Assembly (NCBI GenBank): GCA_008933805.1
Contig: WBUH01000002.1
Location: forward strand, 27,443-91,442
DNA: 64,000 nt
Direction: 5' to 3'
Source: Bacteroidota bacterium
Lineage (GTDB): Bacteria; Bacteroidota; Bacteroidia; UBA8524
Of the stretch, positions 26,013 to 62,515 are shown piece by piece; positions within the stretch are counted from its first letter, which is position 1; every line of letters begins with the position of its first letter. The notes beneath the pieces were generated by a model that worked only from the letters and a program-made list of their open reading frames with translations, searched no databases and was not told the DNA's origin. A program made the position numbers and the translations under genes.

Positions 26013-26083
26013 GGTCTCATGGCCGAGTGGCTAGGCACGGGTCTGCAAAACCCTTTACGGCGGTTCGAATCCGCCTGAGACCT
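26013..26083 (+). tRNA. tRNA-Cys (anticodon GCA)
   Basis: Hand-folded cloverleaf: 7-bp acceptor GGTCTCA/TGAGACC, anticodon loop CTGCAAA, T-arm GGCGG-TTCGAAT-CCGCC, 4-nt variable loop, discriminator T. Length 71 nt; CCA is not encoded. Confidence 0.85.
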
Positions 26084-33865: not shown

Positions 33866-34789
33866 TTAACCCAACAACTCAAACATTACCCCTTCTTTTA
33901 AGGAGTAGGTAGAGCAGAATAACTCACTAAGGTTATTGGCACGAAGGGCGTAATCAATCAGGCAACTGGCAACCACCATCATTTCAACGCGGTAATCTAC
34001 CAAACCTGCCATTTTTTTACGGTCTTCAAGGGTTGATAATAGCAGTATCGTATGTATTTGGCTATAACTCTCTAACGGGATGTTGCACCAAGTTTCGTTG
34101 TTTTCAAGTAAATGGGTGCCAAAACGTTCGTTCACCAATTCGCAGATACTATCAAACGACCCTGCCGACCCTACCAGTTTTGTTACCGGAAATTTGGCTA
34201 CTGCCTCTCTAAGCGGAGCAAGGTGCTTTTCTAAGAAAGAATTTAAGGCTTTCAAATCACCGGCTGAGATGGGCTCAGTAGTATGGAACATTTCGGCAAG
34301 GCGCGCAGCACCTACTTCAAAGCTGCCATGCCAGTGTATTTTTTCGTTATTACCCAGTATAAACTCAACACTTCCGCCGCCAATATCCATTACCAGTACA
34401 TTTTCATCGGTAAGAGGGTAGGCGTGTTTTACACCGTTGTATATCAATTCAGCCTCACGCAAGCCGTCAATAGTGGCAAGTTCAATACCTGTTTTGTCTA
34501 AAACTTCTGCACTAAATTGGGCACCATTTGCTGCTGAACGTATGGCCGATGTAGCAAAGGCAGCTACTTTATCAGCCCCAAATTCTTTAATTTTTTCACC
34601 AAAAAAAGTAAGCGCATTAATACCCCGTTCATACGCAGCGGCTTGTATAGTCCCTTTATTTATACCCCCTTCGCCCAATTTCACCGGAAACTGCTTGCGG
34701 TATTCAGTAGTAAAAGTCCCTTGGTTTAGCGACACTATTAATAAATGAAACGTGTTTGTGCCACAATCTATAACCGCCAGTTTTTGCAT
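33866..34789 (-). CDS. Ppx/GppA family phosphatase (exopolyphosphatase-like)
   Basis: 307 aa. Actin-like ATPase N-terminus LAVIDCGTNTFHLLIV and the motif DIGGGSVEF. Confidence 0.8.
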   Translation of the reverse strand: MQKLAVIDCGTNTFHLLIVSLNQGTFTTEYRKQFPVKLGEGGINKGTIQAAAYERGINALTFFGEKIKEFGADKVAAFATSAIRSAANGAQFSAEVLDKTGIELATIDGLREAELIYNGVKHAYPLTDENVLVMDIGGGSVEFILGNNEKIHWHGSFEVGAARLAEMFHTTEPISAGDLKALNSFLEKHLAPLREAVAKFPVTKLVGSAGSFDSICELVNERFGTHLLENNETWCNIPLESYSQIHTILLLSTLEDRKKMAGLVDYRVEMMVVASCLIDYALRANNLSELFCSTYSLKEGVMFELLG

Positions 34790-50091: not shown

Positions 50092-50107
50092 GGGGCGCAA
50101 GCCCCTT
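50092..50107. terminator. Bidirectional terminator between the SOD gene and the cytochrome c gene
   Basis: aaaaaa ggggc gcaa gcccc tttttt: A-run, hairpin, T-run. Confidence 0.75.
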
Positions 50108-50109
50108 TT

Positions 50110-50469
50110 TTATTTTAAACTGTTTATCCATTTGGCAATAGCCAGTGCATCTTCTTGCGGTAAACGTTGGGGCAGCATCGGGGGGTAGCCCGGCCAGTTT
50201 TCAGGCTTGGGGTTATACATCAAACTCACCATTTGCTCATCAGTGTATCCTTTTTTAGCAACCTCATTAAAAGCAGGCCCTACTAATTTTTCACTTGGCT
50301 TATGGCAGGTAAGGCAAGTATGTTCGTCAAGCTTGGCTTGTATATCAGCAGGCGGCTCAATGGTGACTGTTTGCTGTGTGGCTTGTTCAGTACTTTGTGC
50401 GGGTTTCTTTTCATTTCCGCAGGCAGTCATTGCAAACCCTGCAATCATAAGAATCACGTAGTTTTTCAT
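50110..50469 (-). CDS. Class I c-type cytochrome, lipoprotein
   Basis: 119 aa. Lipobox MTACG. Single CLTCH haem site and a distal Met. Confidence 0.75.
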   Translation of the reverse strand: MKNYVILMIAGFAMTACGNEKKPAQSTEQATQQTVTIEPPADIQAKLDEHTCLTCHKPSEKLVGPAFNEVAKKGYTDEQMVSLMYNPKPENWPGYPPMLPQRLPQEDALAIAKWINSLK

Positions 50470-50564
50470 ACACTCAAAAATTTCAGCGAAAATAAAGGCT
50501 TGCTGTATGAAACACTACAAAACTTTACCGATAGGAAAAACAAAAGGCTAAAGCGTTGACGGTA

Positions 50565-50662
50565 ACTTTTGGGTGGGACACTTGGGACACTCGTTTTTAA
50601 ATTCTATCAAATTGATTTTAAATTGTTTATGTGTTGTAAAGTTGTCCCATTTACGTGGGACA
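50565..50662. promoter_or_regulatory. Cluster of GGGACA direct repeats and a TGTCCCA-N6-TGGGACA palindrome (candidate operator)
   Basis: gggtgggacacttgggacac at 50561-50580. tgtcccatttacgtgggacaaagtgggaca at 50633-50662. A further copy, tttgggacacc, sits at 52443-52453 at the edge of repeat copy B. Confidence 0.45.
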
Positions 50663-50872
50663 AAGTGGGACAGTTGTATGGCCCAGTTACGGTGTTATTT
50701 AGTTACGCGGTTATCGTGTTATTTTTGTTACGCACCGCGCAGGGGCTTGCGAAGTTCTACAAAGCAAAGGCAGTTTCAGGAGGTCAAAGAACTAGGCTGG
50801 ATAGTTTGTAATTGGAAACGGGTATAAATGAAGACTGGGCTTGCTCAAAAGTAAGGGGTTGAAAACTCTACT

Positions 50873-50926
50873 GTTACAATTACCTTTTTATGAAGGACTT
50901 AAGTCCTTCACAAAAAGGTAATTACA
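50873..50926. repeat. Family-2 hairpin element (TTACAA-stem-GACTTAAGTC-stem-TTGTAA)
   Basis: ttacaattacctttttatgaag GACTTAAGTC cttcacaaaaaggtaattacaa. Confidence 0.7.
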
Positions 50927-50986
50927 AAAGCGATAGGTTTTAACCTGTCGGGTTAGAAAAACACCGCAACACTCATATTTGATGCA

Positions 50987-51280
50987 CCCCGCTCCCATAA
51001 GTCTCTCCAGCAAACTGTGCAACAGCGACTTGTAAAAGCAAAAATACATCCTTTGTTAGGAAGGTAGCAACTATCAACGGCCATGTGCGCGGCTCCCCTC
51101 CTTGTGGAGGCTGAGCAAAGGACAAGGAGGGGTTGGGGGAGGTAGCATTAAACACAGCTTACCCCGCTCTCCCAAGTCTCTGCCTTCGGCTATGCAATAG
51201 GGGCTTGTAAGCCAAAGTTAAAATAAGCTTGTAACGTATTATTCACTTATAAAGTTGCAGTTTTATACGCAGGTGATAAT
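50987..51280. repeat. Composite repeat copy A: U1-U2-U1'-T
   Basis: Aligned by eye to copies B, C and D. U1 is ccccgctcccataagtctctccagcaaactgtgcaacagcgacttgtaa. U2 is the ~125-bp GC-rich unit containing ggccatgtgcgcggctcccctccttgtggaggctgagcaaagga(a/c)aaggaggggttgggggagg. The T tail is gccaaag(t/a)taaaataag(c/t)ttgtaacgtatt.... Confidence 0.8.
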
Positions 51281-51408
51281 TGAAATACTACCAGTTATCC
51301 AGCCCACTGTAGTAACGGTTACAAATACAGCCCATGTTTGTTGTGAAATTTGTAGGCACGGCTCATACTTCAAATTCCTTTCTCTATGTTACATACTTAG
51401 GCTATTTG

Positions 51409-51453
51409 CCCTCACAAGTCCCTGCCACTACAAGCCAAGCTACTGACTTGCGA
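51409..51453. repeat. Degenerate U1-like copy overlapping the 3' end of small ORF X1
   Basis: ccctcacaagtccctgccactacaagccaagctactgacttgcga compared with the U1 consensus. Confidence 0.5.
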
Positions 51454-51765
51454 GAGCGGCTTATTGTAAAAATTATTGGACTCTGCACCTCTAAAAACAA
51501 ACATCATTAGAATAATATTAATTGCAATTAAAAAATTCAAAATACTGATTATATAAGACCAGTTTCTACTCTTAACAACAACAAAACTTAAAAAACTAGT
51601 AATTACCATCCAAAGGGTAAATCCAATAAAATAAATTGCATCTCCTAAACCATAACCAAGATTGTAGTCAAAGAAACTAAAACTAATAAAGAAAAGACTA
51701 TATACTACAGCATAAAAAAAGAATGTTTTCTTCTTTATGTCTTTAATAATATCAGATTTTATCAT
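51412..51765 (-). CDS. Hypothetical small polytopic membrane protein (X1), AT-rich
   Basis: 117 aa, 3-4 hydrophobic segments, very AT-rich codons, no recognisable family. The 3' end overlaps the degenerate U1 repeat, so the true stop or extent is uncertain. Confidence 0.4.
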   Translation of the reverse strand: MIKSDIIKDIKKKTFFFYAVVYSLFFISFSFFDYNLGYGLGDAIYFIGFTLWMVITSFLSFVVVKSRNWSYIISILNFLIAINIILMMFVFRGAESNNFYNKPLSQVSSLACSGRDL

Positions 51766-51984
51766 TTTTTTGAGAGATTACTAATTTAGTTAAATAACCA
51801 TTGTCAGTTGTTTTTTAATTAATTCTGGATGATCAACATCAAATGAATATACATCTAACCACCAAATCCATTTATATAAGAATCAGACAGATCAATTAAT
51901 GTAGTTGTACGTAAATATTTGCCATCATCCCCATGACAATTAAATTCGGCCTGCTAATCCTCCTTGAACGCCGTCAATATTGTT

Positions 51985-52453
51985 CCACCCGTTCTCGTAA
52001 GTCTGTCGTAGGCAATGCACGGCAGGAACTTGTAAGAACAAAAATACATCCTTTGTTAGGAAGGTAGCAACTACAAACGGCCATGTGCGCGGCTCTCCTC
52101 CTTGTAGAGGTTGCGCAAAGGAAAAGGAGGGGTTGGGGGAGGTCGCAAAAACAAGGATCACCCCATTCTCCCAAGCCTCTACCGCAAACTGTGCAACAGC
52201 GACTTGTGAGAACAAAAATACATCCTTTGTTAGGAAGGTAGCAACTATCAACGGCCATGTGCGCGGCTCCCCTCCTTGTGGAGGCTGAGCAAAGGAAAAG
52301 GAGGGGTTGGGGGAGGTCGCAAAAACACGGCTCACCCCGTTCTCTCAAGTCCCCACCGCAAACTGTGCAACAGCGACTTGTAAGCCAAAGATAAAATAAG
52401 TTTGTAACGTATTCTTCACTTATAAAGTTGCAGTTTCATACGAAGGGGATAAT
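51985..52453. repeat. Composite repeat copy B: U1''-U2-U1-U2-U1-T (2.3 tandem units of ~175 bp)
   Basis: Two near-identical U2 units (52036-52161 and 52210-52336) separated by U1 copies. The T tail at 52384-52453 ends in tttgggacacc. Confidence 0.85.
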
Positions 52454-52470
52454 TTGGGACACCATCTGAA

Positions 52471-53091
52471 CTACCGATATAATCCCAAAAGATTTAATAA
52501 CGATGTTGCAAAAGATTTAAATTGTTTTTCAAAAAAAACAAACAGCTTTTCGTATTTGAAATAGTATATAAGCGATAACACAAATATTAATAAAATATAC
52601 AGTCGGTAGAAAAAAGTTCCTTTGTAAGGTAAATCAAACAACAAAGCTCCAAGAATAAAAATTGATGAAAAAACACCAAAAAAGAAACAAGAATAATTAA
52701 AGATAGATTGAGTGATTTCCAAATAAAAAGAATTTTCCTGCTCGAACTGGTCTTTTGAGTATTTTTTTAAAAGTAACATACAATAATAGCTTTTAAACCT
52801 TCTTTTAGTTTCAAAATAACATTTTGACATAATAGCTAAACAGAATGACATTTCTTTATAATCAAACTGTTCCGCTAATAGCATTAGTCGTCTGCTATTT
52901 GTACAATACTCCAATGCTTTTTGATACTTACATTTTTTATAATAGCTAAAACCCAAAATATTCAGCATATCAACCCTCTGCAATAAATTGACTCGCTGAG
53001 AGACCTCCATTTTTGAAACTGAATTAATTATTGCATCATACTCCTTATTCTCAAAATTTTCTATTATAGTTTCGAAGAGGTTCAATTTCAT
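52471..53091 (-). CDS. Hypothetical protein (X2): soluble alpha-helical N-domain plus two C-terminal TM helices, AT-rich
   Basis: 206 aa, no recognisable family. The start lies ~38 nt downstream (gene strand) of the reverse complement of repeat copy C. Confidence 0.4.
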   Translation of the reverse strand: MKLNLFETIIENFENKEYDAIINSVSKMEVSQRVNLLQRVDMLNILGFSYYKKCKYQKALEYCTNSRRLMLLAEQFDYKEMSFCLAIMSKCYFETKRRFKSYYCMLLLKKYSKDQFEQENSFYLEITQSIFNYSCFFFGVFSSIFILGALLFDLPYKGTFFYRLYILLIFVLSLIYYFKYEKLFVFFEKQFKSFATSLLNLLGLYR

Positions 53092-53129
53092 AACTATTTA
53101 TTTGATTTTCGTACCAACTGGTAAAATAG

Positions 53130-53250
53130 CCCCTGCTCCCATAAGTCTCTCCAGCAAGCTGTGCAACAGCTACTTGTAAGCCAAAGATAAAATAAGTTTG
53201 TAACGTATTCTTCTCAGCTAAAGTAACGGTTTATACGCTGAGGATAACCT
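53130..53250. repeat. Composite repeat copy C: U1-T (no U2)
   Basis: cccctgctcccataagtctctccagcaagctgtgcaacagctacttgtaa followed by gccaaagataaaataagtttgtaacgtattcttc.... Confidence 0.8.
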
Positions 53251-53310
53251 TGAACACATCTCTTAAACAAAACACATTGTATGTTTACATTCGATTTCAT
53301 TTCCTTTGAA

Positions 53311-53691
53311 TTAATTTGGATGATAGAATGTGAATTTATAAATCTCGTTTTTTGCTTTGATAACAAATAAAGTGTCAGAAAACGCGGGTTTGTAAACACT
53401 ATCATTTGGCTGTGCCAAATCATCAAAAAAAACACTTTTCCCATTTGTAGAGACAACATATGGATGAAAATAATACTTCGTAACACTATTTTTTAAAGAT
53501 ATTACTTGCATTTTTTCTCGATACTCAATATAGGAGATTAGTCCACTTAATTCTGTTGAATCAAAAAAATCAAAATGTTTTTTTAGTCTTCGGTTATTAA
53601 GATTGTTTACCAACAGATATCCCATTATTAAACAAAAAATAATCAGGGCTTTAACTTTAAATTTTTTTTCTTTTGTTCTTATTAAAATCAT
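53311..53691 (-). CDS. Hypothetical N-terminally membrane-anchored small protein (X3), AT-rich
   Basis: 126 aa. The N-terminal KALIIFCLIMGYLLV is a TM anchor, followed by a ~90-aa soluble domain. No recognisable family. Confidence 0.4.
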   Translation of the reverse strand: MILIRTKEKKFKVKALIIFCLIMGYLLVNNLNNRRLKKHFDFFDSTELSGLISYIEYREKMQVISLKNSVTKYYFHPYVVSTNGKSVFFDDLAQPNDSVYKPAFSDTLFVIKAKNEIYKFTFYHPN

Positions 53692-53712
53692 GTATTAAAA
53701 ACGCATTGGAAA

Positions 53713-53790
53713 CTCCCCAACTCCCACAAGCCTCTCCCGTAAATTGTAAAGCAGGGGCTTGTGCGTGGGAGATAAAATTGGGTTAAAGCT
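53713..53790. repeat. Degenerate repeat copy D (U1'-like plus T-like), immediately 5' of X3 on the gene strand
   Basis: ccccaactcccacaagcctctcccgtaaattgtaaagcaggggcttgtg, then cgtgggagataaaattgggttaaagc (compare T: aagccaaagataaaataagtttgtaacg). Confidence 0.55.
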
Positions 53791-53801
53791 ATATTATGTT
53801 C

Positions 53802-55766
53802 TTACTCCCTCACAAACTTAGTAACACCCTTGTACCCGTTGCCTTGCACTTGAATAAAGTAAATACCTGCGGGCAAATCAGCGATAGGTAACGTATTAGT
53901 ACCATTTTCAATGGCAAAGGTACGTACCACTTGTCCCACAAGGTTCATAAGGCTGCCCTTAAGAGCAGGGCCGTTAAAGCCGGCGGGAGCAATGGTAAGT
54001 TCAGTTGTAGCAGGGTTGGGGTACACAGCCAGTTGCAAGTTCGTTTCAGCCAATTGGTCTATCCCCGCGGGGAAGGTAATATCCGTACTGTCAAACATCC
54101 CTTGGCTCAAATTATAATACGTACCCGATGGAGTAGTCTCCTTTTTCACCGCACGCACCATATATACGTTGTGGCCTTGCAAAGGGTCATTGTCAACAAA
54201 GCTAGTACCGTTTACCAACGTAAGATTGACCTTCACATACTTGCCGTACAAATGCGGGGCGCGGTACACGTGGTAGCCCACCACATTAGCATCGGTAGAG
54301 GCCGTCCAGCTTACCGTTACCTTTTTTGTACCCGTTTCAACAGCGTCAATAGTAGTAGGGGCTAACGCTACGTGCATACGCAGGGTAGGGTCGCCCATCA
54401 GCGCAATGTGTATCAAGCGTTGCGAGCCGTTAAAGTTTCCTTCATACAATGTGCCGTTTTCGTTTTGGGTAAGTCGCGCACCGTATCCGATACATTCGCC
54501 CAATGCCATGTGGTGCAATGCCCAGTTGGGAATACCGCCCCAAAAACTTGCCAGTATCGAAGGTTTTGAAGCCAATGCAGCACGCAACAAAGCATCTTGG
54601 ATGTCCCAATCGCCAAAATAACTGCCTGCCAGCGAGGTGAAAATGGTTTTAATGCTATCCGCAGCAAACTGTGCGGTGTTGATTACTCCGCCGCAAGACG
54701 AGTACCAACCGCCGCCGCAAGCCCCGCTCCATAAATACCAGTCTTTTTTCAAATCAGCATTGTAGTCAACGCCGTTGTTCACATTGTCTACAATGTTTGC
54801 AGAGCCCACCATGGGCGCAAAGTTTCGCCAGTTTGACGAAGCAATTGTAAACGATTGAAAATTATCGTCAATCAACGCCCTTGCAGGGGCAGTAAGCTGT
54901 CCAATGCGGTAGCTGTGGTTTTTTTGCAGGTAGTAACGCAGCAACGCCGTATCACTTTGTCCCGCAAAAGCAGGCAAGCGAGAAAGGTCAACGCGGCCTA
55001 CCATTAAATCCACATCGCTATCAAACTGGCTGGCATCAAACTTACCATCACCGGGTTGGTTTTTATTCTCAGCCCTTGATGCCGACGAAGTACTTACAAT
55101 ATTATCCGTCCACAAACCATCTACATCACCGTAATACCCGTCGCAAGGCCAAGCCCCCGAATGGTCGGGGTGTCCGTCAGGGTATATACTCCCTGAATAG
55201 GGGACAGGTACTCTTCCCAACAGAAACACGGCTTTCACATTAGGTACAGTCTTTATTTTATCCCTAACCGCCGTAACTGCATCGGTACGTTCAGTGATAA
55301 TGCGTTGCACTTGCCAGCCGTCACCAATCAAATCTTTTTCAAGCATGGCAATTTCGGTGGCCAGCGGTTGCAAATAATTATTATCAATCACAAGCGCAAG
55401 CGTGCCGTGCTGTTCTTCGACAGCATGGTTTATACCGGCATACACACTGCCCAGTGCGCCCGTGCTTCCGCCTTCTTTAAATACCAAATACTCGTAGGCT
55501 TGACCCACGGTAACCGCATTATCGGTATAAGTACTGTCGCCCGTGCCAAGGTTAGCATACACATTGCCCCAGTCCTTATCTTCCTTCGCTTTTCTAAACA
55601 CCCGTATGCGGGTAGCATCAGTAAACTTTGGAAATTTAAGGGTAATAGCAGCCGGACTTTCGCTTACCGTTGCCGTAACCAACACCGAACGGTTTTTATT
55701 GAATTGTGCCGTTACAGCCGTTGAAACAAGAAATAGAAGTGAGGTAACGAGTAGAGTTTTTTTCAT
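53802..55766 (-). CDS. T9SS C-terminal-sorting-domain secreted protein of unknown function (possibly a cysteine-peptidase-like or adhesin-like cargo)
   Basis: Start trimmed to MKKTLLVTSLLFLVSTAVTAQ (signal peptide). The track's N-terminal extension to 55946 runs into the hairpin cluster. The C-terminus is LAVYPNPATTELTI...GIYFIQVQGNGYKGVTKFVRE, a type-A T9SS sorting domain. The Cys-containing central region is unassigned. Confidence 0.55.
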   Translation of the reverse strand: MKKTLLVTSLLFLVSTAVTAQFNKNRSVLVTATVSESPAAITLKFPKFTDATRIRVFRKAKEDKDWGNVYANLGTGDSTYTDNAVTVGQAYEYLVFKEGGSTGALGSVYAGINHAVEEQHGTLALVIDNNYLQPLATEIAMLEKDLIGDGWQVQRIITERTDAVTAVRDKIKTVPNVKAVFLLGRVPVPYSGSIYPDGHPDHSGAWPCDGYYGDVDGLWTDNIVSTSSASRAENKNQPGDGKFDASQFDSDVDLMVGRVDLSRLPAFAGQSDTALLRYYLQKNHSYRIGQLTAPARALIDDNFQSFTIASSNWRNFAPMVGSANIVDNVNNGVDYNADLKKDWYLWSGACGGGWYSSCGGVINTAQFAADSIKTIFTSLAGSYFGDWDIQDALLRAALASKPSILASFWGGIPNWALHHMALGECIGYGARLTQNENGTLYEGNFNGSQRLIHIALMGDPTLRMHVALAPTTIDAVETGTKKVTVSWTASTDANVVGYHVYRAPHLYGKYVKVNLTLVNGTSFVDNDPLQGHNVYMVRAVKKETTPSGTYYNLSQGMFDSTDITFPAGIDQLAETNLQLAVYPNPATTELTIAPAGFNGPALKGSLMNLVGQVVRTFAIENGTNTLPIADLPAGIYFIQVQGNGYKGVTKFVRE

Positions 55767-55844
55767 CAATTGTATAATTGGCTTTAAGAAGCAAGTTATA
55801 TAATTTAGAATAAAAACGGTGTGGCAAACATCATCAACGCAATA

Positions 55845-56181
55845 GCAGCAGGTTTTATACCTGCTGTGATGTGAGGATACAACAGCGACGGGTTTTACAC
55901 CCGTCGGCAAGAATGGTTTCATACCCTTTGCAAAACGGGTTCTCAATAGCGACGGGTTTCATACCCGTCGTAATAGGTAGGATAACAACGATGGGTTTTA
56001 CACCCATCGGTCAGAAAAGGTTTCATTCCCGCCATTAATACCCTGAATATAAAATTCAGGTCTTTTATGTGTAACGTTCCGAATGGTCTTAAACCATTCG
56101 GAACGAATCATTGCAAAACAGCGACGGGTTTTATACCCGTCGTAATAGGAGGGATAATAACGATGGGTTTTATACCCATCG
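55845..56181. repeat. Cluster of 8 family-1 hairpin repeats (GG-TTTYAHA-CC loop core with covarying stems), BIME-like
   Basis: gcagcaggttttatacctgctg. cgacgggttttacacccgtcg. cgacgggtttcatacccgtcg. cgatgggttttacacccatcg. ctgaatataaaattcag. cgttccgaatggtcttaaaccattcggaacg. cgacgggttttatacccgtcg. cgatgggttttatacccatcg. A ~55-bp doublet (gacggg hairpin, taatagg-gggataa spacer, gatggg hairpin) occurs twice. Confidence 0.85.
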
Positions 56182-56205
56182 ACCAAAATAAGGTTTCAAA
56201 CAGCC

Positions 56206-61968: not shown

Positions 61969-62318
61969 AGACTTAAGTCTGCCTTCGGCTTTTTAACTGT
62001 ATAAGCAGCTAACGTTGCGAATGGTTTTAAACCATTCGCAACGAACCCTTGCAAAAGAGACGGGCTTTATGCCCGTCGGGGGTTGGACGGAATAAAGCCC
62101 ATTGTTATTTTGGGTTTAAAAACCCCACTATTACAATTACCAATCGAGAGATGACTTAAGTCCTCTCTCGCATTGTAATCACAAAAGAGACGGATTTTAA
62201 TCCGTCGCAGCAAAAAATACCCTTGCGCTTTAAAAACAACAGATTAAAACCTGTTGAACCGACTGATACAAAACGTTGTCTTGCGTTAAGACATTCCGAA
62301 TGATTTTAAACCATTTGG
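61969..62318. repeat. Intergenic cluster mixing both hairpin families (about 7 hairpins), starting with a bidirectional terminator
   Basis: aaaaagccgaaggcaGACTTAAGTCtgccttcggcttttt at 61965-62005. gcgaatggttttaaaccattcgc at 62037-62059. gacgggctttatgcccgtc at 62079-62097. gggtttaaaaaccc. ttacaattaccaatcgagagatGACTTAAGTCctctctcgcattgtaat at 62151-62199. gacggattttaatccgtc at 62209-62226. ccgaatgattttaaaccatttgg at 62296-62318. Confidence 0.8.
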
Positions 62319-62515
62319 GATGTTGCTGAATTAAACAGCTTACAAGTTTTGTAACCTGCCTCAAATACACTAAGAAGCAAAATAGTTGTTAATAGCGACT
62401 TAGTGTCTTCGTGGCAAAATAGTAAACTCCATCCGTGGACGTTATTTTGACTTTTTAGCCACTCCTTTTAACGTTAAAAAGTAGCAGGTTTCAACCAGTT
62501 GCATAAATTCGTAAC

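What the first reader, a model, noticed from the sequence alone, without database searches (positions are those of the whole stretch)
51985..52453. 175-bp tandem unit (U1 ~48 bp + U2 ~125 bp) with copy-number variation between array positions
Aligning the four copies by eye shows the layouts A = U1-U2-U1'-T, B = U1''-U2-U1-U2-U1-T, C = U1-T and D = degenerate U1'-T'. The U2-U1 unit is therefore present 1, 2, 0 and 0 times.

U1 is an imperfect hairpin (ataagtc...gacttgt). U2 contains a GC-rich inverted repeat, ggctcccctcctt ... aaggaggggttggggg, with a nested cctcc-ttgt-ggagg hairpin. The two U2 copies inside B are nearly identical, differing at only a few positions. The U1 copies diverge more, and the differences often sit within the stem: cccataagtctctcc, cccaagtctctgcc, ctcgtaagtctgtcg.

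Near-identical tandem units point to recent slippage, duplication or gene conversion, that is, an actively changing locus. Translating these repeats gives the spurious ORFs in the track (for example 51940-52335), whose protein sequences are themselves internally repeated.
Basis: seen in the sequence. Interest (0 to 1): 0.6.

Follow-up and report, generated by a model that had tools for sequence, protein, structure and literature searches.

The report
Junction repeats of a strain-variable gene-cassette array
The 174-bp tandem unit is real. It is a non-coding insert (U2) plus one copy of a hairpin repeat (U1) that separates small, AT-rich, strain-specific genes in a hypervariable gene array of an uncultured Bacteroidota bacterium, similar to an integron or an orphan-immunity island but with no recombinase gene beside it.

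Summary
Block B (51986-52462) reads U1-U2-U1-U2-U1-T. Block A has one U2; C and D have none.

No Rfam family, plasmid or phage matches. The long ORFs across the repeat are spurious.

The repeats are junction elements of a cassette array on the minus strand. Each small gene (26-29% GC against 42% for the window) is followed by T (~78 nt) and then U1 (~50-nt imperfect hairpin).

Seven strains share flanks that are 96-98% identical: a T9SS-sorted protein gene on one side and a cytochrome c gene on the other. They carry seven different gene sets between those flanks, joined by T/U1. More distant relatives have no array there.

Contents include an Rhs-like toxin fragment and a ParE pair. Most genes have no homologues.

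The closest known system is rAID-1 of gut Bacteroidales. Its defining adjacent tyrosine recombinase is absent here, and integron attC boxes are absent too.

The tandem U2 copies differ at 8 positions, as much as copies at other positions or in another strain. One shares three linked variants with that other strain. This argues against recent slippage and for recombination between U1 copies.

The mechanism, the function of U2 and the assembled copy number remain unproven.

The parts
53802..55766 (-). Conserved left flank: gene for a 654-aa protein with a T9SS C-terminal sorting domain
   Evidence: Pfam Por_Secre_tail, E = 6e-11. 96-98% nucleotide identity to sibling strains, and the homology stops at the stop codon.
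53715..53801 (-). Junction D: truncated T plus U1_D, directly after the stop codon of the T9SS-sorted protein gene
   Evidence: nhmmer U1 hit at 53765-53715; alignment.
53311..53691 (-). Cassette gene, 126 aa, 26.5% GC, no family hit
   Evidence: Identical to KAB2918035.1.
53130..53257 (-). Junction C: T_C (53180-53257) plus U1_C (53130-53180), with no U2
   Evidence: nhmmer; alignment A6.
52471..53091 (-). Cassette gene, 206 aa, 27.2% GC, with a weak TPR match. It has essentially no homologues.
   Evidence: Among 1.84 billion representative proteins, only the protein itself and TPR-only hits were found.
52384..52462 (-). T_B. It starts 9 nt after the stop codon of the 206-aa gene and contains the conserved core AAGAATACG-TTACAAA-CTTATTTTA and a TATCTTTG box.
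52334..52384 (-). U1_B3 hairpin
52211..52334 (-). U2_B2, an insert with no ORF, 52.8% GC
52160..52210 (-). U1_B2 hairpin. It shares an identical 27-nt stretch with U1_B3.
52037..52160 (-). U2_B1. This is a distinct allele that shares three linked variants with the U2 of strain L002.
51986..52036 (-). U1_B1 hairpin, the most divergent loop type. It lies 220 nt upstream of the 117-aa gene.
51412..51765 (-). Cassette gene, 117 aa, predicted membrane protein, 28.5% GC. Its 3' end overlaps the inverted U1.
51284..51459 (+). Inverted U1 (51411-51459) plus a conserved segment of about 130 nt. The same module occurs in strain L002 at 89% identity.
   Evidence: nhmmer; blastn 51459-51277 against L002 4984-5167.
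50986..51283 (-). Junction A: T_A, U1_A2, U2_A, U1_A1. Homology to the right flank of other strains starts inside U1_A1, at 51004.
50110..50469 (-). Conserved right flank: cytochrome c gene, 119 aa
   Evidence: Pfam Cytochrom_C; 96% identity to L002.

Best explanation
**What it is.** T plus U1 form a composite junction element of about 130 nt. It separates the cassettes of a hypervariable, horizontally acquired gene array inserted between a T9SS-sorted protein gene and a cytochrome c gene in one species-level lineage of uncultured Bacteroidota.

On the minus (gene) strand each module reads: stop codon, T, U1, short leader, next ORF. U2 is a 125-nt piece with no ORF, caught between two U1 copies. 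The '174-bp unit' is therefore U2 plus one junction hairpin.

**Shown.**
- Gene content and the number of U2-U1 units differ between array positions and between strains.
- Homology breakpoints between strains fall inside or at the edges of T and U1.

**Inferred.**
- Recombination at the junction elements does the shuffling. This could be RecA-type unequal crossover between U1 copies, which share up to 27 identical nt. It could also be a trans-acting site-specific recombinase using the conserved dyad core of T or the U1 hairpin.
- Such recombination inserts, deletes, duplicates and swaps the segments between junctions. The doubled U2-U1 in block B would be one such event, not replication slippage.
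- The junction probably also carries expression signals. A Bacteroidetes-type -7 box (TAnnTTTG) lies immediately before U1 in most copies, so U1 would form a 5' stem-loop on each cassette mRNA.
- The cargo is probably orphan toxin and immunity genes and similar conflict genes.
For: **Layout and copies.**

**Gene and junction geometry.** All array genes lie on the minus strand, with T 3-54 nt after stop codons and U1 25-220 nt before start codons.

**Composition.** Cassettes are 26.5-28.5% GC, against 48% for the flanking gene and 42% for the window.

**Strain variation.** Seven strain versions of the same locus have different genes but the same T/U1 junctions. They are the window, L002, L008/9/10, L011, L012, L013/14 and L016. 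Flank identity is 96-98%, with breakpoints at the stop codon of the T9SS-sorted protein gene and inside the last U1.

**Recent origin at this site.** Relatives at 62-64% protein identity have the T9SS-sorted protein gene followed directly by cytochrome c genes, with no T, U1 or U2.

**Confinement.** T, U1 and U2 were found only inside the arrays in all sequence held.

**Recombination traces.**
- U1 copies are chimeric. L002 and L008 diverge in the centre of the loop.
- A homologous gene (73% identity) sits at different array positions with different U1 types.
- L012 and L016 share a block whose homology begins inside T.

**U1 structure.** The hairpin is conserved: 79% of cells pair, against 36-54% for slid controls.

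**U2 alleles.** Tandem copies are no closer to each other than dispersed copies are.

**Cargo.** A weak Rhs core match (E = 0.0019) followed by an HExxH protein and a small gene in L013; ParE in L002/L008; a weak MORN_2 match in L016.
Against: - No recombinase gene lies within 10 kb on one side or about 50 kb on the other. The nearest tyrosine recombinase in sibling strains is the XerC/D-like gene next to rpsU, about 9.5 kb away. Array-less relatives have it too.
- Array boundaries are heterogeneous. L011 and L013 start with no T/U1 and end in a half T. L012 ends with no junction at all. This does not fit a single attI-type insertion site.
- Covariation in U1 is weak (27 of 500 shuffles reach the observed score), and neither strand is clearly preferred.
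- The -7 box is missing in the short T variant and in junction D.
- The window's own three cassette proteins have no toxin or immunity family hit.
- U2 has no detectable function. Its folding is no better than that of shuffled sequence.
- The copy number in block B rests on one metagenome-assembled contig. The independent Logan contig L001 breaks at junction C.
Confidence: 0.62

Rival explanations
1. The junction is purely an expression module. T is a promoter and U1 a 5'-UTR stabilising or regulatory hairpin that travels with each gene. U2 is a leader, riboregulator or small RNA. The junctions are conserved for expression only, and variation arises by ordinary horizontal transfer and homologous recombination.
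For: TAnnTTTG lies directly upstream of U1 in win_A, win_B, win_C and L002_b, and with one mismatch in four more junctions. Every junction is co-oriented with the genes. G-U pairs slightly favour the sense strand (79.2% against 72.5% of cells paired).
Against: T is tied more tightly to the upstream stop codon (3-54 nt) than U1 is to the next start codon (25-220 nt). The -7 box is deleted in the short T variant (L012_c, L013_b) and degenerate in D. No -33 TTG lies at the right spacing. U2 folds no better than shuffled sequence. There is no Rfam match. An inverted U1 with no gene behind it exists at 51411-51459. This rival is compatible with the main explanation rather than exclusive of it.
Confidence: 0.2
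2. The doubled U2-U1 in block B is an assembly artefact. An assembler traversed a U1-U2-U1 cycle twice, threading two strain alleles of a single-copy U2 in tandem.
For: The source is a metagenome-assembled genome. The two U2 copies are distinct alleles, and one is shared with another strain. The unitig-level Logan contig breaks at a junction repeat. Every other U2 position has one copy.
Against: The middle U1_B2 differs from both neighbouring U1 copies (7 of 53 positions from U1_B3), so it is a third distinct sequence that must exist in the reads. The 16 mismatches between the units make them resolvable with short reads.
Confidence: 0.1
3. These are REP/BIME-like or MITE-like selfish palindromic elements that happen to have accumulated here. 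U2 would be a miniature transposon whose terminal inverted repeats are GACTTGTGAGAAC and GTTCTCTCAAGTC.
For: The mosaic of palindromic units and linkers with variable copy number resembles E. coli BIMEs (own knowledge). RNAfold pairs the two ends flanking U2. The window holds other hairpin repeat families (D4, D5, D7).
Against: No T, U1 or U2 lies outside the array in the 64-kb window or in the sibling loci. Neither T pattern matched any of 185,579 species-representative genomes, and the short viral scans also found nothing. The 'terminal repeats' are just the two halves of U1, which exist without U2 in C and D. There is no target-site duplication. All four U2 copies sit between two U1 copies, right after a T.
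Confidence: 0.06
4. The repeat encodes a real repetitive protein (ORF 51940-52335 or 51974-52348).
For: Open frames of 131 and 124 aa span two units.
Against: Frames are open on both strands, and because the period is 58 codons. There is no homologue in 5.8 billion proteins. U2 differences are mostly non-synonymous. GC is 53% in a 27% GC gene array.
Confidence: 0.02

Closest known systems
rAID-1 (recombinase-associated acquired interbacterial defence) gene clusters of gut Bacteroidales (Ross et al. 2019, bioRxiv 10.1101/471110; PMC12247911)
   Same: Both are arrays of co-oriented short genes of low GC (the rAID criterion is below 41%; here 26-29%). Both have conserved repetitive intergenic sequences 'reminiscent of integrons', strain-variable content, and orphan toxin/immunity-type cargo. 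In rAID the mechanism of assembly is still unknown.
   Different: The defining XerD-family tyrosine recombinase gene at the head of the array is absent here; a T9SS-sorted protein gene sits there instead. The host is an uncultured environmental Bacteroidota lineage, not a named Bacteroidales. Immunity-family hits are only weak. The rAID-1 intergenic motif could not be compared with T/U1 because it is given only as a figure.
Integrons and CALINs (clusters of attC sites lacking an integrase)
   Same: Each ORF is followed by a repeated, imperfectly palindromic site. Cassettes are mostly ORFans. The array differs between close strains. ORF-less cassettes and cassette duplications are known in integrons (own knowledge).
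   Different: There is no IntI gene. No R'' (RYYYAAC) or R' (GTTRRRY) boxes occur in any of 10 junctions on either strand. Much of the junction (T) is conserved in sequence rather than only in structure. Array boundaries are heterogeneous.
Orphan toxin C-terminus/immunity arrays downstream of rhs and cdi genes (own knowledge)
   Same: L013 carries an Rhs-core-like fragment followed by an HExxH protein and a small gene, and L011 carries a remnant of that fragment. The arrays are strain-variable and AT-rich.
   Different: No full-length rhs or cdiA gene lies upstream. Most cassettes are single small genes with their own junction repeat and lack a toxin-fragment homology patch.
E. coli BIMEs (mosaic REP clusters) and Acinetobacter pdif modules (own knowledge)
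   Same: BIMEs are tandem mosaics of palindromic units and linkers with variable copy number. pdif modules are gene modules, often toxin-antitoxin, bounded by short recombinase sites and served by a recombinase encoded elsewhere.
   Different: The elements are not dispersed in the sequence sampled. No 28-bp dif-like site was identified, only a weak 9-7-9 dyad in T.

Membership tests
rAID-1 | Predicted XerD-family tyrosine recombinase gene immediately upstream of the array | tested here: not met
   The upstream gene is a T9SS-sorted protein gene. None of the ORFs scanned within 10 kb upstream or 10 kb downstream is a recombinase. The nearest Phage_integrase gene in sibling strains lies about 9.5 kb away next to rpsU and is also present in array-less relatives.
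rAID-1 | Two or more co-oriented short genes (about 100-300 codons) with GC below 41% | tested here: met
   Genes of 126, 206 and 117 aa, all on the minus strand, with GC 0.265-0.285.
rAID-1 | Conserved intergenic sequence motifs between the ORFs | tested here: met
   T plus U1 occurs after every cassette in the five strain versions that have internal junctions (the window, L002, L012, L013/14, L016). Whether the motif is related to the published rAID-1 motif could not be tested.
rAID-1 | Genes homologous to known interbacterial immunity or toxin families | tested here: inconclusive
   Only weak or indirect hits were found: Rhs_assc_core E = 0.0019, zincin motif, MORN_2 E = 1e-4, ParE. The window's three proteins have none.
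Integron / CALIN | attC sites with R''/L''...L'/R' boxes (RYYYAAC ... GTTRRRY) | tested here: not met
   A regex scan of 10 junctions on both strands found no compatible pair. The IntegronFinder attC covariance model was not available.
Integron / CALIN | IntI-type integrase with attI and Pc at the head of the array | tested here: not met
   No integrase gene occurs in the window ORFs scanned or in the gene lists of the sibling loci next to the array.
Integron / CALIN | Imperfect palindromic site after each cassette, with cassette content variable between strains | tested here: met
   79% of cells in the U1 hairpin pair. Seven different arrays lie between identical flanks.
Slippage-type tandem repeat (minisatellite) | Adjacent units more similar to each other than to copies elsewhere | tested here: not met
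   U2_B1 against U2_B2 gives 8 differences, U2_B2 against U2_A gives 8, and U2_B2 against the L002 copy gives 7. U2_B1 shares three linked variants with the L002 copy.
REP/BIME or MITE | Many copies dispersed in unrelated intergenic regions; for MITEs, terminal inverted repeats with target-site duplication | tested here: inconclusive
   No copies lie outside the array in the window and loci, and exact T patterns are absent from GTDB representative genomes. The complete source genome could not be scanned. No target-site duplication was seen, and the 'terminal repeats' are halves of U1.
Known RNA family (Rfam 15) | Covariance-model match at or near the gathering score | tested here: not met
   Only a tRNA at 26013 reaches the gathering score. 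In 50800-53900 at E up to 10 there are only chance microRNA-type hits, none on U1, U2 or T.

The most novel reading that the evidence does not exclude
T plus U1 is the recombination site of an undescribed cassette-capture system in environmental Bacteroidota that works with a recombinase encoded elsewhere. It would be analogous to a CALIN or pdif system but with its own site architecture: a sequence-conserved 9-7-9 dyad core followed by a 50-nt hairpin. U2-U1 would be a mobile cassette with no ORF. The array would bank orphan toxin, immunity and toxin-antitoxin genes at a fixed chromosomal hotspot.
Probability: 0.25. Interest if true: 0.7.

Novelty: new variant of a known kind. Interest (0 to 1): 0.5.

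Why it matters
How rAID-type orphan-immunity arrays are assembled is an open question; PMC12247911 calls it 'an area of active research'.

This locus offers a compact natural series. Seven strains have near-identical flanks, seven different cassette sets and well-defined junction repeats, with no recombinase gene next to the array. That makes it possible to map where exchanges happen, and the breakpoints fall in or at the edges of T and U1.

It also suggests that such arrays exist outside gut Bacteroidales and can run on a recombinase encoded elsewhere or on homologous recombination alone.

For genome annotation, the practical lesson is that the long ORFs across U2-U1 are artefacts, and that repeats of this kind break short-read assemblies.

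Tried and rejected
- **Rfam.** A gathering-threshold scan of the window and a permissive scan of 50800-53900 found nothing on the repeats.
- **Collection scans for T.** Two exact patterns against 185,579 species-representative genomes gave 0 hits.
- **Viral contigs, plasmids and phages.** T and U2 patterns in viral contigs gave 0 hits. blastn of block B against plasmids and phages gave no match.
- **Pseudo-protein trick.** Searching the U2 ORF translation to find other U2 copies that had been called as genes gave no hits.
- **U2 as a structured RNA.** Fold z-scores of -1.1 to +0.1 on both strands reject this for now.
- **U2 as a diverged T.** Global alignment scores no better than shuffles.
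- **U2 as a MITE.** The inverted ends are just halves of U1.
- **T hairpin with covarying stem.** The apparent covariation is alternative partial matches to a constant GTGAAG, so it is not convincing.
- **attC boxes.** Absent.
- **Cassette protein function.** AlphaFold2 of the 126-aa protein gave pLDDT 48, which is unusable. PADLOC gave no hits. The 206-aa protein is not homologous to the L012 TPR lipoproteins. The L013 HExxH protein has no homologue other than itself.
- **Recombinase hunt.** No recombinase was found among the candidate ORFs scanned in the window.

Full report
**1. The observation**

Tandem Repeats Finder reports 52028-52384 as a 174-nt period with 2.1 copies, 91% matches and score 616.

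Repeat finding, MAFFT alignments and profile searches give these copies:
- Seven co-oriented copies of a ~50-nt unit, U1, at 50986, 51161, 51986, 52160, 52334, 53130 and 53715.
- Three copies of a ~125-nt unit, U2, at 51037, 52037 and 52211.
- Three full copies of a ~78-nt unit, T, at 51211, 52384 and 53180, plus a truncated one that abuts the stop codon at 53802.

The layouts A = U1-U2-U1-T, B = U1-U2-U1-U2-U1-T, C = U1-T and D = degenerate U1 plus partial T are correct.

The two full 174-nt units are 90.8% identical, with 16 mismatches. The two U2 cores differ at 8 positions.

**2. What the repeats are not**

- Only a tRNA elsewhere in the window reaches an Rfam gathering score. A permissive Rfam scan of 50800-53900 gives only chance hits, none on U1, U2 or T.
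- Block B has no blastn match in the plasmid or phage collections.
- The 131-aa ORF across the repeat has no homologue among 5.8 billion proteins. Frames stay open simply because 174 nt equals 58 codons.
- U2 folds no better than shuffled sequence on either strand, with z from -1.1 to +0.1. There is no statistical support for a structured RNA, although the 9-11-bp GC-rich inverted repeat is there.
- The nested CCTCC/GGAGG hairpin is not conserved.
- U2 shows no significant similarity to T.

**3. Context in the window**

All genes in 50100-55800 lie on the minus strand. In gene order they are:
- a 654-aa protein with a T9SS sorting domain (53802-55766)
- junction D
- a 126-aa gene
- junction C
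- a 206-aa gene
- block B
- a 117-aa gene
- an inverted U1 plus a ~130-nt segment
- block A
- about 500 nt of flank
- a cytochrome c gene (50110-50469)

The three small genes are 26.5-28.5% GC. The gene for the T9SS-sorted protein is 48% GC and the window 42%.

On the gene strand each module therefore reads: stop codon, T, U1, optionally U2-U1 once or twice, leader, next start codon.

The three small proteins have no Pfam, NCBIfam or PADLOC family apart from a weak TPR match. The 206-aa protein has no real homologue among 1.84 billion representative proteins.

**4. Other strains**

A metagenome scan with the U2 core found one contig, L002. It is the same locus in a close relative.

Exact-protein look-ups of members of the 90% identity cluster of the T9SS-sorted protein recovered the locus from more assemblies: L008/L009/L010, L011, L012, L013/L014 and L016.

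Flanks are 96-98% identical to the window. Homology stops exactly at the stop codon of the T9SS-sorted protein gene on one side and inside the last U1 (window 51004) on the other. Between these flanks the seven versions carry seven different sets of small AT-rich genes, joined by T and U1.

Relatives whose T9SS-sorted protein is only 62-64% identical have that gene followed directly by cytochrome c genes, with no T, U1 or U2. The array is therefore an insertion hotspot acquired in one lineage.

In all sequence held (the 64-kb window plus about 20 kb around the locus in each strain), T, U1 and U2 occur only inside the arrays. U2 occurs only three times in the window and once in L002. Two T patterns found nothing in 185,579 species-representative genomes.

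**5. Cargo**

- In L013 the array begins with a fragment that weakly matches the RHS-associated core domain (TIGR03696, E = 0.0019, below cut-off; sequence YRFGFNGQEKDDE...YDTRLGRRWNVD). It is followed by a 265-aa protein with a zincin HExxH motif and then a 138-aa gene. This is the pattern of an orphan polymorphic toxin with its immunity gene.
- L011 keeps a remnant of the same fragment.
- L002 and L008 carry a ParE toxin and antitoxin pair.
- L016 has a protein with a weak MORN_2 match.
- L012 has two tandem TPR lipoprotein cassettes.

The toxin/immunity reading is thus an inference from sibling strains. It is not shown for the window's own three genes.

**6. Anatomy of the junction**

Alignment of ten complete T-U1 junctions shows that T is conserved in sequence: GTCGTGTYCCAAATTATC ... 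GTTACTTTAGCTGTGAAGAATACGTTACAAACTTATTTTA.

The most invariant stretch is AAGAATACG-TTACAAA-CTTATTTTA, an imperfect dyad with 6 of 9 matches between its arms. A TAnnTTTG box, the Bacteroidetes -7 promoter consensus (own knowledge), lies immediately before U1 in eight of ten junctions, either perfectly or with one mismatch. It is deleted in a short T variant that always pairs with one particular U1 loop type.

U1 is an imperfect hairpin (CAAGTC ... GACTTG with a variable interior). Across 19 distinct copies 79% of cells pair, against 36-54% for slid controls. Covariation is weak (27 of 500 shuffles reach the observed score), and the two strands fold about equally.

Integron attC boxes are absent.

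T starts 3-54 nt after stop codons. U1 ends 25-220 nt before start codons.

**7. Evidence for recombination at the junctions**

- The right-flank homology starts within the last U1.
- L002 and L008 share the first U1 only up to the centre of its loop. L002's copy is a chimera of two loop types seen in the window.
- L012 and L016 share a block whose homology begins inside T and ends at the 3' edge of U1.
- Homologous genes (73% identity) sit at different positions behind different U1 types in L002 and L012.
- L002 has an inverted pair of U1 copies with the same loop. One of them lies next to a duplicated 38-nt fragment of the cytochrome c gene.
- Boundaries are not uniform. L011 and L013 lack a junction at the head and end in half a T, and L012 ends without one. 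A single integron-style insertion site does not fit.

**8. The tandem unit itself**

The 174-nt unit is U2 plus one U1. All four known U2 copies lie between two U1 copies, directly downstream of a T on the gene strand.

U2 differences between copies:

| Pair | Differences |
|---|---|
| U2_B1 vs U2_B2 (tandem neighbours) | 8 |
| U2_B2 vs U2_A (1 kb away) | 8 |
| U2_B2 vs the L002 copy | 7 |

U2_B1 shares three linked variants with the L002 copy (GTAGAGGTTGCGC instead of GTGGAGGCTGAGC). The tandem pair is therefore made of two old alleles, which argues against recent replication slippage.

U1_B2 and U1_B3 share an identical 27-nt stretch, enough for homologous unequal crossover. A site-specific event at U1 would give the same product. 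I cannot distinguish the two.

Because the source is a metagenome-assembled genome and the independent Logan contig L001 ends at junction C, the copy number of two is not independently confirmed. The distinct middle U1_B2 argues that it is real.

**9. Comparison with known systems**

The closest described system is rAID-1 of gut Bacteroidales. [quoted passage not shown] Its mechanism of assembly is unknown (10.1101/471110; PMC12247911).

The present array meets the gene, GC and repeat criteria. It fails the defining recombinase criterion: a T9SS-sorted protein gene is at the head, and no recombinase lies within 10 kb. The only nearby tyrosine recombinase in sibling strains is the rpsU-linked XerC/D-like gene, which array-less relatives also have.

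It also fails integron membership, having neither IntI nor attC boxes. It works like these systems but is not a member of either as defined.

REP/BIME, MITE and coding-repeat readings are disfavoured. The evidence is set out with the rival explanations.

**10. Verdict**

'Recent slippage' is not supported.

The feature is the junction repeat system of a strain-variable, AT-rich cassette array, carrying an ORF-less insert (U2) of unknown function that is present one, two, zero and zero times.

Novelty is a new variant of a known kind. Interest is moderate, mainly because the seven-strain series could help work out how recombinase-less rAID-like arrays are built.

Noticed in passing
window 51284-51459; L002 4984-5167: An inverted U1 plus a ~130-nt non-coding segment is conserved at 89% identity between two strains, although the upstream neighbours differ. 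In the window the inverted U1 supplies the last codons of the 117-aa ORF. It may be a reversed cassette remnant or a small RNA.
   Followed up: partly
L002 4941-4978 (matches window 50402-50439): A 38-nt copy of the 5' part of the cytochrome c gene lies inside the L002 array, directly next to an inverted U1. Relatives have two tandem cytochrome c genes after the T9SS-sorted protein gene, so the array may have been inserted into, and destroyed, the first of them.
   Followed up: partly
window 55881-56188, 62010-62085, 62289-62338: Two other families of short GC-rich hairpin repeats (D4: AACAGCGACGGGTTTTACACCCGTCG...; D5: TAACGTTCCGAATGGTCTTAAACCATTCGGAACG) lie clustered in intergenic regions, partly as a 172-nt tandem at 55945-56195. 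They look REP-like and are unrelated to U1, U2 and T.
   Followed up: no
window 50855-50923 and 62112-62164: A near-perfect 46-nt palindrome (AATTACCTTTTTATGAAGGACTTAAGTCCTTCACAAAAAGGTAATT) lies in the right flank of the array. A 75% identical partial copy lies 11 kb away. It accounts for the spurious microRNA hits in the permissive Rfam scan.
   Followed up: no
window 50574-50591; L002 6900-7020: Repeated TGTCCCA / TGGGACA motifs, including an inverted pair, lie upstream of the cytochrome c gene. The 5' end of T carries a similar GTGTCCCAAA. This may be a shared regulator half-site or chance.
   Followed up: no
window 33866-34789 against L003-L007: In relatives at 62-64% identity the T9SS-sorted protein gene and cytochrome c genes are followed directly by ppx. 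In the window ppx lies about 19 kb away, with sodA, tdk and a 2078-aa alpha-2-macroglobulin gene in between. This is a lineage-specific rearrangement next to the hotspot.
   Followed up: partly
L012 12079-13634: Two tandem paralogous TPR lipoprotein cassettes (205 aa each) have the same leader and are each followed by T. This is a whole-cassette duplication analogous to the U2-U1 duplication.
   Followed up: partly
L016 8162-8612: The first cassette of strain L016 looks like a frameshifted or split small gene directly after the stop codon of the T9SS-sorted protein gene, with no head junction. This is a third type of left boundary.
   Followed up: no
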